Made by a program: the position numbers and the translations under genes
DNA from: an uncultured Bacteroides sp.
GTDB lineage: Bacteria > Bacteroidota > Bacteroidia > Chitinophagales > Chitinophagaceae
Direction: 5' to 3'
NCBI GenBank assembly: GCA_902168085.1
Contig: CABHOP010000078.1
Location: 33 to 64,032, forward strand
DNA: 64,000 nt
The notes under the pieces: generated by a model
What the model saw: only the letters and a program-made list of their open reading frames with translations
Told to the model about the DNA's origin: nothing
Databases searched by the model: none
Shown here: piece after piece, positions 62,618 through 62,857 of the stretch
Position numbering within the stretch: position 1 is the stretch's first letter
Layout: each line of letters starts with the position of its first letter

Positions 62618-62857
62618 TGTTACAAATTGTTACAATGTTACAATCCAGCAGCAAAGGGACATATGATGTAACAATAAAATGTGTGTATTGTTACACTTTG
62701 TTACATTTTGAAAAGTACAATACGACATTCAATGTTACACTTTGTTACATTTTGTTACACTTTGTTACACCTAACTTATTGAAAATCAAATAGTGTAGTT
62801 TTTGTAACAATTGTAACACTGAAATCCAGTTGCACCGTACAGGATCAGTACGTTACA
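62618..62857. repeat. TGTTACA/TGTAACA heptamer array (iteron-like)
   Basis: TGTTACA at 62618, 62628, 62636, 62689, 62699, 62733, 62743, 62753, 62763; TGTAACA at 62667, 62803, 62812; CGTTACA at 62851. Confidence 0.9.

What the first reader, a model, noticed from the sequence alone, without database searches (positions are those of the whole stretch)
62618..62857. Helically phased TGTTACA array: likely replication origin or cooperative binding platform
There are thirteen heptamers in 240 bp. Runs are spaced exactly 10 bp apart (62733/43/53/63; 62689/99; 62618/28), and orientation flips to TGTAACA at the right end (62803, 62812), so the array converges on the palindrome at 62774-62794, all in AT-rich non-coding DNA. 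The layout matches iteron origins of plasmids, phages and satellites. No Rep gene is in view, so it should lie further right.
Basis: partly seen in the sequence, partly recalled or inferred. Interest (0 to 1): 0.65.

Follow-up and report, generated by a model that had tools for sequence, protein, structure and literature searches.

The report
Prophage replication origin made of heptamer repeats
The cluster of TGTTACA words is real and is most likely the replication origin of a virus integrated in this Chitinophagaceae chromosome, built like the known origins of phage satellites, so it is a well-supported but fairly ordinary kind of element.

Summary
There are 12 exact TGTTACA/TGTAACA copies in window 62618-62818, plus one variant (CGTTACA, 62851). 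The genome background is 0.16 per kb, and this is the only such cluster in the 3.58-Mb assembly.

The array lies 343 bp inside the left end of an element integrated into tRNA-Leu(TAA). The rest of the element is on another contig. That contig carries a large serine integrase and a 793-aa Toprim/DUF5906 (SF3) primase-helicase.

Homologues of that helicase in other Bacteroidota carry the same array layout. It consists of tight pairs, a 10-bp-phased run, an AT-rich spacer and inverted copies. In 8 of the 11 fetched it lies within 80 bp of the gene's stop codon. The heptamer differs by lineage: GATGACA, TGATGCA, AGTTACA, TGCAACA, TGTAAAA.

Two relatives share the gene downstream of the array but replicate with a rolling-circle Rep_1 protein plus SSB. 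They have no array.

This is the SaPI/PICI/P4 design: an initiator helicase with its cognate iterons.

Still unexplained: TGTTACA arrays recur in over 100 unrelated phage and prophage loci, next to unrelated initiators and at the start of packaging operons. Binding and replication are untested.

The parts
62270..62274 (.). Left junction (attL) of the integrated element. TGCCC is the last chromosomal sequence shared with the tRNA-Leu(TAA) 3' end; element DNA starts at 62275.
   Evidence: Synteny with a 91%-identical relative (L006) breaks here, where the relative has tRNA-Leu(TAA). In this genome that tRNA (C20 73257-73344) is followed by the serine integrase. Joining the two flanks gives an imperfect dyad, GAATTCCTATCGC-GGGCA-CCGATGGGAATTT (read).
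62618..62642 (+). Block A: tight triple of TGTTACA (62618, 62628, 62636; spacing 10 and 8 bp).
62667..62673 (-). Single inverted heptamer (TGTAACA on the + strand).
62689..62705 (+). Block B: pair of heptamers 10 bp apart.
62733..62769 (+). Block C: run of four heptamers at exactly 10-bp spacing, so all on one face of the helix.
   Evidence: tandem repeat finder: period 10, 3.8 copies
62770..62802 (.). AT-rich spacer (76% A+T) holding the short palindrome TTGAAAATCAA (62779-62789). It is the candidate melting region between the oppositely oriented repeat sets.
   Evidence: The richest 40-bp window near the array is 85% A+T, the 92nd percentile of same-size segments of the locus.
62803..62818 (-). 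Block D: tight inverted pair (62803, 62812; spacing 9 bp) facing block C across the spacer.
62851..62857 (+). Degenerate copy, CGTTACA.
   Evidence: GTTAC scan
63061..63657 (+). First gene to the right of the array: a 198-aa protein with a beta-sandwich (jelly-roll-like) fold, followed by a strong terminator. It is not part of the origin but defines its right border.
   Evidence: No Pfam or PHROG hit. Only two relatives were found, at 45% and about 28% identity (27% in the alignment). The AF2 model (pLDDT 58) is all-beta with two helices, and its weak best matches are single-jelly-roll coat proteins.

Best explanation
The array is the iteron-type replication origin (ori) of an integrated virus-like element.

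The element entered the 3' end of tRNA-Leu(TAA) by a large serine integrase. It encodes its own initiator, a 793-aa protein with a Toprim-like primase part, a DUF5906/SF3 helicase part and a family-specific C-terminal domain of about 190 aa.

Inferred mechanism, by analogy with SaPI Rep and P4 alpha:
- After excision the element is a circle in which the integrase gene, attP and then the array follow the helicase module.
- The initiator's C-terminal domain binds single TGTTACA heptamers.
- The four copies phased at 10 bp (62733-62769) and the inverted pair (62803-62818) place initiator assemblies in opposite orientation on either side of the AT-rich spacer (62770-62802).
- The spacer melts, and the helicase loads itself and primes synthesis.
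- The outer blocks (62618-62705) add cooperative binding.

Shown here: the array and its uniqueness, the element borders, the initiator gene, the same layout next to homologous initiator genes with lineage-specific heptamers, and the absence of the array when the replication module is of another type.

Inferred only: that this protein binds these heptamers, and that replication starts here.
For: 1. Uniqueness. There are 12 exact copies in 200 bp against 0.16 per kb genome-wide, and no other phased triple in the genome.

2. Mobile-element context. The serine recombinase (Resolvase + Recombinase domains) and the primase-helicase (DUF3854 Toprim-like + DUF5906) lie on contig C20.

3. Homologues of this primase-helicase:
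- In 11 other Bacteroidota genomes, 8 carry a heptamer array starting from 77 bp before to 60 bp after the stop codon. The layout is the same (tight pairs, direct and inverted copies, AT-rich middle) but the word differs: AGTTACA (L303), GATGACA (L304, L305, L306), TGCAACA (L307), TGATGCA (L308, L309), TGTAAAA (L310).
- Close relatives share a word.
- In L304 the array lies between the helicase gene and a DnaG-type primase gene, with no packaging genes nearby.
- L302, from a same-family host (45% identity), has 13 TGTTACA copies 2.3-2.7 kb downstream of the gene, again after a DNA methylase gene as in our element.

4. Viral contigs. TGTTACA arrays abut the 3' end (3-310 bp) of primase-helicase genes of three unrelated families.

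5. A natural module swap. Two elements share the downstream 198-aa gene but have Rep_1 (rolling-circle) plus SSB instead. They have no array and only chance-level heptamers.

6. Only the 7 bp are conserved. Flanks carry less than 0.15 bit, and heptamers stay fixed while spacers drift between sister phages.

7. A+T content. The richest 40-bp window near arrays averages 83% A+T against 73% for controls; 43 of 76 arrays fall in the top decile.

8. One array-bearing provirus (G090) has two array loci, each with perfect DnaA boxes (4 and 2) and a (TA)n tract.

9. The layout matches the published description of SaPI origins: 6-12 short iterons just downstream of rep, a central AT-rich region, and at least two iterons on each side pointing in opposite directions, read by the C-terminal winged helix of a self-loading helicase (PMC9371898). 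P4 alpha has the same primase / SF3 helicase / C-terminal winged-helix order (PMC2777425).
Against: - In this element the array is not next to the initiator gene. In the excised circle it is about 3.4 kb away, beyond a methyltransferase gene, two small genes, the integrase gene and attP. In the prophage the two are at opposite ends.
- The closest homologue found (G032/L301, 49% identity) shows no array within 7.5 kb downstream.
- Across complete array-bearing phages, the constant neighbour is the start of the packaging/structural operon rather than the helicase. Arrays lie 0.8-3.9 kb upstream of terL in 25 loci, often just upstream of terS.
- Only 15 of 40 array-bearing viral records have a DUF5906 protein, and 4 of the 10 that are at least 90% complete.
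- Fourteen such genomes share no protein family by BLAST, so one heptamer is used with unrelated initiators.
- The C-terminal domain could not be confirmed as a winged helix. The AF2 model has a compatible H-S-H-H-S-S-S order, but Foldseek gives nothing better than E = 0.1.
- There are no DnaA boxes in our array.
Confidence: 0.72

Rival explanations
1. Packaging recognition site (pac/cos-like), or another cis site that marks the start of the structural/packaging operon. On this reading the heptamers are wrapped by a packaging protein, not by the initiator.
For: In complete array-bearing phages the array always sits at the head of the packaging operon. It is 0.8-1.3 kb upstream of terL in about 10 loci, and 20-370 bp upstream of genes that are small terminases in 8-10 of 32 cases. 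In G073, G090, G061 and our element it stays with the structural genes while the helicase gene is kilobases away. Arrays are enriched near contig ends: 12 within 300 bp against 3.1 expected. P1 pac (hexamer clusters flanking the cut) and lambda cosB are architectural precedents (my own knowledge).
Against: - The small terminases next to arrays belong to at least four unrelated families.
- In L304-L310 the homologous arrays sit in pure replication modules, between helicase and primase genes, with no packaging genes nearby.
- In our element the downstream gene is a beta-sandwich protein, not a terminase. Its relatives show no terminase within 10 kb.
- Relatives sharing that downstream module lack the array.
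- G090 has two array loci with DnaA boxes.
- High-completeness linear contigs do not end at the arrays.
Confidence: 0.1
2. Operator or enhancer array for a transcription factor that controls the early/late switch or the divergent promoters. The factor would be phage-encoded, or a host OmpR/PhoB-type winged-helix response regulator.
For: Arrays often lie in divergent intergenic regions between the replication/recombination operon and the packaging operon. The same heptamer appears with unrelated replication and packaging proteins, which a common host reader would explain. OmpR/PhoB-family sites are 6-7-bp direct repeats at 10-11-bp spacing with TGT..ACA-like cores (my own knowledge). Bacterial genomes with many simple 3-copy arrays (Dehalococcoidia, Tepidisphaeraceae) look like such regulons. 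Earlier notes e1-3217387 and e1-3605109 read TGTTACA sites as regulator sites in other genomes.
Against: This host has no second array of the kind, and the heptamer occurs at composition-expected frequency. A host regulon using it is therefore not visible. Tight 8-9-bp pairs do not fit tandem OmpR-type binding. The lineage-specific heptamers next to homologous helicase genes point to an element-encoded reader tied to replication. No conserved small DNA-binding gene flanks the arrays. In our element the array ends about 200 bp upstream of the next start codon.
Confidence: 0.12
3. Plasmid-type partition centromere (parC/parS-like), bound by a ParR/ParB-type adaptor to segregate the excised circle.
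For: The R1 parC (ten 11-bp repeats) and P1 parS (heptamer boxes around an IHF bend) have similar short-repeat layouts (my own knowledge). TGTTACA equals the first 7 bases of the chromosomal parS half-site TGTTNCAC when N = A.
Against: No ParA/ParB/ParR-like gene is seen next to any array, in our element's visible 12.8 kb or in the neighbour clusters. The base after the heptamer is not conserved. The element integrates, so it does not need partition.
Confidence: 0.03

Closest known systems
SaPI / PICI replication origins with their Rep (or Pri-Rep) self-loading helicases
   Same: Both have 6-12 very short repeats (5-7 bp), a central AT-rich segment, and repeat sets on the two sides pointing in opposite directions. 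The initiator is an element-encoded helicase whose C-terminal domain sets repeat specificity, and different lineages have different repeats. In homologous Bacteroidota loci the array lies immediately 3' of the helicase gene.
   Different: The helicase here is DUF5906/D5-like (SF3), fused to a Toprim-like primase, not the DUF927/MCM-like SaPI Rep. The repeats are heptamers, some spaced only 8-9 bp apart. In this element the origin is separated from the initiator gene by the integration module and attP. The element appears to be a self-sufficient virus, not a satellite.
Satellite phage P4: ori and crr with type I iterons (TGTTCACC), bound by the alpha protein
   Same: The initiator has the same domain order: DnaG/Toprim-type primase, SF3 helicase, then a C-terminal DNA-binding domain (PMC2777425). 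Both use short octamer/heptamer iterons of similar sequence (TGTTCACC against TGTTACA; the P4 iteron is from my own knowledge). In both, the origin can lie kilobases from the gene, and a second repeat region (crr) exists, as in provirus G090.
   Different: There is no detectable sequence similarity of the C-terminal domain to a solved winged helix. The host phylum differs, and integration uses a serine, not a tyrosine, integrase.
Iteron origins of theta plasmids and lambdoid phages (RepA/pi/TrfA, lambda O)
   Same: Repeated initiator sites lie beside an AT-rich unwinding element, and binding is cooperative along one helical face.
   Different: Those iterons are 17-22 bp long. The initiators are not helicases and need host DnaA/DnaB/DnaC. 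Our array has no DnaA boxes.
Origins of eukaryotic SF3-helicase viruses (SV40 large T GAGGC pentamers; papillomavirus E1 sites)
   Same: Very short repeats in direct and inverted orientation flank an AT-rich tract and load an SF3 helicase as two opposed hexamers (my own knowledge).
   Different: The origin-binding domains are unrelated. This is an analogy only.

Membership tests
SaPI/PICI/P4-type iteron origin of a self-loading primase-helicase replicon | Six or more copies of a short (5-8 bp) repeat clustered in non-coding DNA, far above chance. | tested here: met
   12 exact copies plus 1 variant in 240 bp, and unique in the genome.
SaPI/PICI/P4-type iteron origin of a self-loading primase-helicase replicon | AT-rich segment with repeats on both sides in opposite orientation. 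| tested here: met
   Four direct copies (62733-62769), a 33-bp spacer of 76% A+T, then two inverted copies (62803-62818). The richest 40-bp A+T window is at the 92nd percentile.
SaPI/PICI/P4-type iteron origin of a self-loading primase-helicase replicon | The same element encodes an initiator helicase (with or fused to a primase). | tested here: met
   C20 76445-78826: DUF5906 at 7e-20 plus a weaker match, below Pfam's cut-off, to the Toprim-like DUF3854. The helicase core matches the PDB 'Primase' entries 6k9c and 6k9e. It lies on the contig that carries the element's integrase and the tRNA-Leu target.
SaPI/PICI/P4-type iteron origin of a self-loading primase-helicase replicon | Origin immediately downstream of the initiator gene. 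| tested here: not met
   In this element it is about 3.4 kb away across attP in the excised form. The feature is met in 8 of 11 homologous genomic loci and in at least 11 viral loci.
SaPI/PICI/P4-type iteron origin of a self-loading primase-helicase replicon | Repeat sequence co-varies with the initiator lineage (cognate specificity). | tested here: met
   Six different heptamers occur across the homologues, and close relatives share one. However, TGTTACA is also used beside two unrelated initiator families.
SaPI/PICI/P4-type iteron origin of a self-loading primase-helicase replicon | The initiator's C-terminal domain is a winged helix that reads the repeats. | tested here: inconclusive
   In the AF2 model of the homologous L041 domain, the core has pLDDT 86-91 and an H-S-H-H-S-S-S order. 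No significant Foldseek match was found; the best is E = 0.11.
SaPI/PICI/P4-type iteron origin of a self-loading primase-helicase replicon | The initiator binds the repeats, and the fragment supports initiator-dependent replication. | not testable with these tools
   This needs EMSA or footprinting and a replication assay.
Plasmid/lambdoid theta iteron origin | Iterons of 17-22 bp bound by a dedicated non-helicase Rep, usually with DnaA boxes. | tested here: not met
   The unit is 7 bp with uninformative flanks. No DnaA box with up to 1 mismatch lies near the array.
Terminase recognition site (pac/cos) | Lies in or just upstream of a small-terminase gene of the same element. | tested here: not met
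   The downstream gene is a beta-sandwich protein without terminase signatures. Relatives show no terminase within 10 kb. The feature is met for many other TGTTACA arrays.
Terminase recognition site (pac/cos) | Virion DNA ends map at or next to the site. | not testable with these tools
   There is no access to reads.
Host response-regulator boxes (OmpR/PhoB type) | The same phased repeats occur at several promoters of the host's own regulon. | tested here: not met
   No other phased triple exists in 3.58 Mb. The two 3-copy mini-clusters (C11, C39) lie beside unremarkable genes.

The most novel reading that the evidence does not exclude
TGTTACA arrays of this fixed layout would be a pan-phage 'landing pad' read by something other than the neighbouring initiator.

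This would explain several facts: the identical heptamer, with free spacers, recurs in over 100 phage and prophage loci of several phyla. It lies beside three unrelated primase-helicase families, or beside none, always at the head of the packaging operon. The genomes involved share no protein family.
Probability: 0.12. Interest if true: 0.75.

Novelty: new member of a known kind. Interest (0 to 1): 0.42.

Why it matters
It gives a concrete, testable origin for a poorly known group of Bacteroidota viruses. The element seems to be a tailless virus with a jelly-roll-like coat gene.

It also supplies a ready-made specificity series: TGTTACA, AGTTACA, GATGACA, TGATGCA, TGCAACA and TGTAAAA, each with its cognate DUF5906 helicase. 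That series could be used to learn how SF3-type self-loading helicases read 7-bp words. It could also yield compatible replicons for genetic tools in Chitinophagaceae and Flavobacteriia, which are scarce.

The wide recurrence of one heptamer in unrelated phages is an open question worth a dedicated survey.

Tried and rejected
1. Host regulator sites. Rejected: there is no second array in the genome and the heptamer is at its expected frequency.

2. Arm-type integrase sites, because the array is 343 bp from attL. Rejected: the integrase is a large serine recombinase, and that class needs no arm sites (established knowledge).

3. A conserved small DNA-binding gene next to the arrays. None was found; the only 'family' was ORFs reading through the repeats.

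4. A protein family common to all array-bearing phages. None was found by BLAST in 14 genomes. The C-terminal domains of the two main primase families have no stand-alone homologues in the genomes that lack them.

5. A conserved TTGA-N-TCAA palindrome as a second origin element. It is present in only 8 of 78 arrays.

6. DnaA boxes as a general feature. They occur in only one phage lineage.

7. Cumulative GC skew. Its minimum lies within 0-4 kb of the array in about half of 14 genomes, but this coincides with switches of transcription direction, so it is uninformative.

8. Rfam. Nothing was found in the array.

9. Literature search for the heptamer. Only primers turned up.

10. BLAST of the array, and of a terL and a primase from array-bearing viral contigs, against cultured phages. 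There were no close relatives.

11. The element's missing middle part. No contig overlaps the end of C78, and there is no Rep_1 homologue in the assembly.

13. A control heptamer scan (ACATTGT x3) gave 18 viral loci, almost all plain perfect tandem repeats. The 86 TGTTACA loci with variable spacers are therefore not a generic tandem-repeat background.

Full report
OBSERVATION

The window holds 22 TGTTACA/TGTAACA heptamers. Twelve of them lie between 62618 and 62818:
- nine on the + strand: 62618, 62628, 62636, 62689, 62699, 62733, 62743, 62753, 62763;
- three inverted: 62667, 62803, 62812.

A one-base variant, CGTTACA, lies at 62851. Tandem Repeats Finder sees period-10 arrays at 62688-62710 and 62733-62770.

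In the whole 3.58-Mb assembly (101 contigs; the window is C78:33-64032) the heptamer occurs 576 times, or 0.16 per kb. That is what base composition predicts. The only cluster of four or more copies is this one. No other place has three units at 9-12 bp spacing, even with two mismatches.

Two 3-copy mini-clusters on C11 and C39 lie in ordinary intergenic DNA beside unremarkable genes.

Rfam finds nothing in the array.

WHERE IT SITS

A 91%-identical relative (G001, L006) is collinear with the window up to 62274. It then continues with tRNA-Leu(TAA), tRNA-Gly and further genes.

In our genome that tRNA block is on contig C20. Directly after tRNA-Leu (73257-73344) come these genes, all on one strand, running to the contig end:
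- a large serine recombinase (Resolvase + Recombinase domains);
- two small genes;
- a methyltransferase;
- a 793-aa protein with a Toprim-like DUF3854 segment and a DUF5906 (D5/SF3-type) NTPase;
- then small genes and a divergent 159-aa gene of unknown function.

So an element is integrated at the tRNA tip. Its left end is at window 62275 and its right end at C20 73345. The middle is missing from the assembly: C78 ends 1.3 kb right of the array and no contig overlaps it.

The two junctions share GGGCA. Joined, they give an imperfect dyad, as expected for a serine-integrase attP (read).

The array therefore starts 343 bp inside the left end. In the excised circle the order would be: primase-helicase, methyltransferase, two genes, integrase, attP, array, 198-aa gene.

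The 198-aa gene (63061-63657) has no family match and only two relatives. It models as a beta-sandwich whose weak best matches are single-jelly-roll coat proteins.

THE SAME HEPTAMER ELSEWHERE

An exact scan for three TGTTACA at 10-bp phase found 86 loci in IMG/VR. It found more than 119 in bacterial genomes of several phyla. A composition-matched control word, ACATTGT, gave 18, and almost all of those are plain perfect tandem repeats.

The TGTTACA loci are different. About 75 distinct loci have 5-13 copies with variable spacers and a recurring layout:
- a run of 3-6 copies at 10-12 bp;
- tight pairs or triples at 8-9 bp, about 40-57 bp away;
- inverted copies.

Only the seven bases are conserved; the flanks carry less than 0.15 bit. 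Sister phages keep the heptamers while the spacers drift.

Arrays are flanked by unusually AT-rich 40-bp windows. The mean is 83% against 73% for controls, and 43 of 76 arrays fall in the top decile.

CONTEXT OF THOSE ARRAYS

Two associations appear.

(a) With primase-helicase genes. Arrays lie 3-310 bp after the stop codon of primase-helicase genes of three unrelated families:
- the family of our protein;
- a phrog_864 D5-type primase;
- an AEP prim-pol/helicase.

(b) With the packaging operon. Arrays lie at its head, 0.8-3.9 kb upstream of terL in 25 loci. They are often just upstream of small terminases of several families. In complete genomes they often lie in the divergent region between the replication/recombination operon and the packaging operon.

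Only 15 of 40 array-bearing viral records contain DUF5906. Fourteen near-complete genomes share no protein family. No conserved small gene flanks the arrays. By itself this left origin and packaging site undecided.

THE DISCRIMINATING TESTS

First test. I searched 400 genomes of the phylum with our primase-helicase and fetched the 11 hits.

In eight of them a heptamer array of the same layout begins between -77 and +60 bp of the gene's stop codon, but the word differs by lineage:
- AGTTACA (L303);
- GATGACA (L304, L305, L306);
- TGCAACA (L307);
- TGATGCA (L308, L309);
- TGTAAAA (L310).

Close relatives share the word. All eight GATGACA copies in the 10 kb of L304 lie in 3303-3519. Twelve of the 16 AGTTACA copies in L303 lie in 3926-4180. 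No shuffle reached these counts.

In L304 the array lies between the DUF5906 helicase gene and a DnaG-type (Zn-ribbon + Toprim) primase gene. That is a pure replication module.

The homologue from a same-family host (L302, 45% identity) uses TGTTACA, like ours. It has 13 copies, 2.3-2.7 kb downstream of the gene, after a DNA methylase gene. This shows that displacement of the array from the gene is tolerated.

Second test. The two elements that share our 198-aa gene (L004 and G012/L003) carry a Rep_1 rolling-circle initiator plus SSB in front of it, instead of a primase-helicase. They have no array. The array therefore travels with the helicase-type replication module, not with the structural gene it precedes here.

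Third observation. One provirus (G090) has two array loci, each with perfect DnaA boxes and a (TA)n tract.

COMPARISON WITH KNOWN SYSTEMS

The published description of SaPI origins reads:
- six to twelve penta/hexanucleotide iterons immediately downstream of rep;
- a central AT-rich region;
- at least two iterons on each side pointing in opposite directions;
- recognition by the C-terminal winged helix of a self-loading helicase (PMC9371898).

This fits our array almost point for point. P4 alpha has the same primase / SF3 helicase / C-terminal winged-helix order (PMC2777425).

Differences:
- The helicase here is DUF5906-type.
- The repeats are heptamers.
- In this element the integration module and attP lie between gene and origin.
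- The element looks like a complete virus rather than a satellite.

I could not confirm that the C-terminal domain is a winged helix. The AF2 core is confident and has a compatible secondary-structure order, but Foldseek found no significant match.

VERDICT

The origin reading is supported at about 0.7.

The main residual doubts are three:
- the constant position of TGTTACA arrays at the head of packaging operons;
- their use beside unrelated initiators;
- the closest homologue (L301), which shows no array.

All functional steps (binding, melting, initiation) are inferred.

Earlier scan notes reached similar conclusions for other TGTTACA or iteron arrays beside primase-helicase genes, and for the att junction and capsid-like gene in this window. 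I treated them as leads. I re-derived the junction, the fold hint and the host-regulon test myself.

Noticed in passing
window 60951-61073: A stretch of about 120 nt is conserved at 73-87% in all 15 same-genus genomes searched. It lies just upstream of the start of the 792-aa secreted protease-like gene (58604-60982, minus strand). It is probably that gene's leader or promoter, or a small RNA; there is no Rfam match.
   Followed up: partly
G000 contig C20 76445-78826 and homologues (L041, L119, L083, L100, L204, L301-L303): The primase-helicases of this family end in an acidic tail with terminal DLPF, EIPF or KIPF. This resembles the SSB C-terminal tip (DDDIPF) that recruits host replisome proteins. 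The SSB of relative L004 ends ADDLPF. It may be SSB-tail mimicry by the initiator.
   Followed up: no
window 62277-62342: A reading frame is open from the att junction to a TAA (…ELISTIRAA*). I only confirmed by eye that the frame is open.
   Followed up: partly
window 62975-63010: A 14-nt inverted repeat (TTCCTATACTTGAT / ATTAAGTATAGGAA, 93% complementary, 8-nt loop) lies between the array and the 198-aa gene's start. It could be an operator or an RNA hairpin in the leader.
   Followed up: no
window 63061-63712: The 198-aa gene has its own strong terminator (about 63685-63710) and a jelly-roll-like predicted fold. Its two relatives sit in elements with Rep_1 + SSB, many small genes, a glucosaminidase and no terminase. 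This suggests an undescribed tailless virus group in Chitinophagaceae.
   Followed up: partly
L247 (IMG/VR provirus G090) 6923-7420, and G090 44200-44660: There are two separate TGTTACA regions 20 kb apart. Each has perfect DnaA boxes (4 and 2) and a long (TA)n tract. The second lies 70 bp upstream of a serine integrase gene. The pair resembles the ori + crr arrangement of P4.
   Followed up: partly
L301 (G032:C30 57000-69000): The closest homologue of the primase-helicase (49% identity) has no TGTTACA and no other heptamer array within 7.5 kb downstream. Its origin is elsewhere or is built differently.
   Followed up: partly
G000 C11 63221-63244 and C39 109415-109439: Two 3-copy mini-clusters of the heptamer have the same tight 10/8 and 10/9 spacing as block A of the array, with a one-base-variant fourth unit 8 bp on at C39. 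They lie in ordinary intergenic DNA; the C11 one is inside a REP-like repeat region. They are probably chance.
   Followed up: partly
L120, L136, L152, L172 (one Dehalococcoidia genome); L127, L130, L150, L151, L173, L191 (one Tepidisphaeraceae MAG): Some bacterial genomes carry many simple 3-copy TGTTACA arrays at 10-bp phase, dispersed over the chromosome. These look like a response-regulator regulon (Pho-box-like) and are unrelated to the phage arrays.
   Followed up: no
window 62779-62789 and L122 1780: The identical palindrome TTGAAAATCAA occurs inside the array of a Desulfofundulus (Bacillota) contig, and similar TTGAT(A/T)ATCAA palindromes occur in 6 other arrays. The enrichment is only 2.4-fold.
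   Followed up: yes
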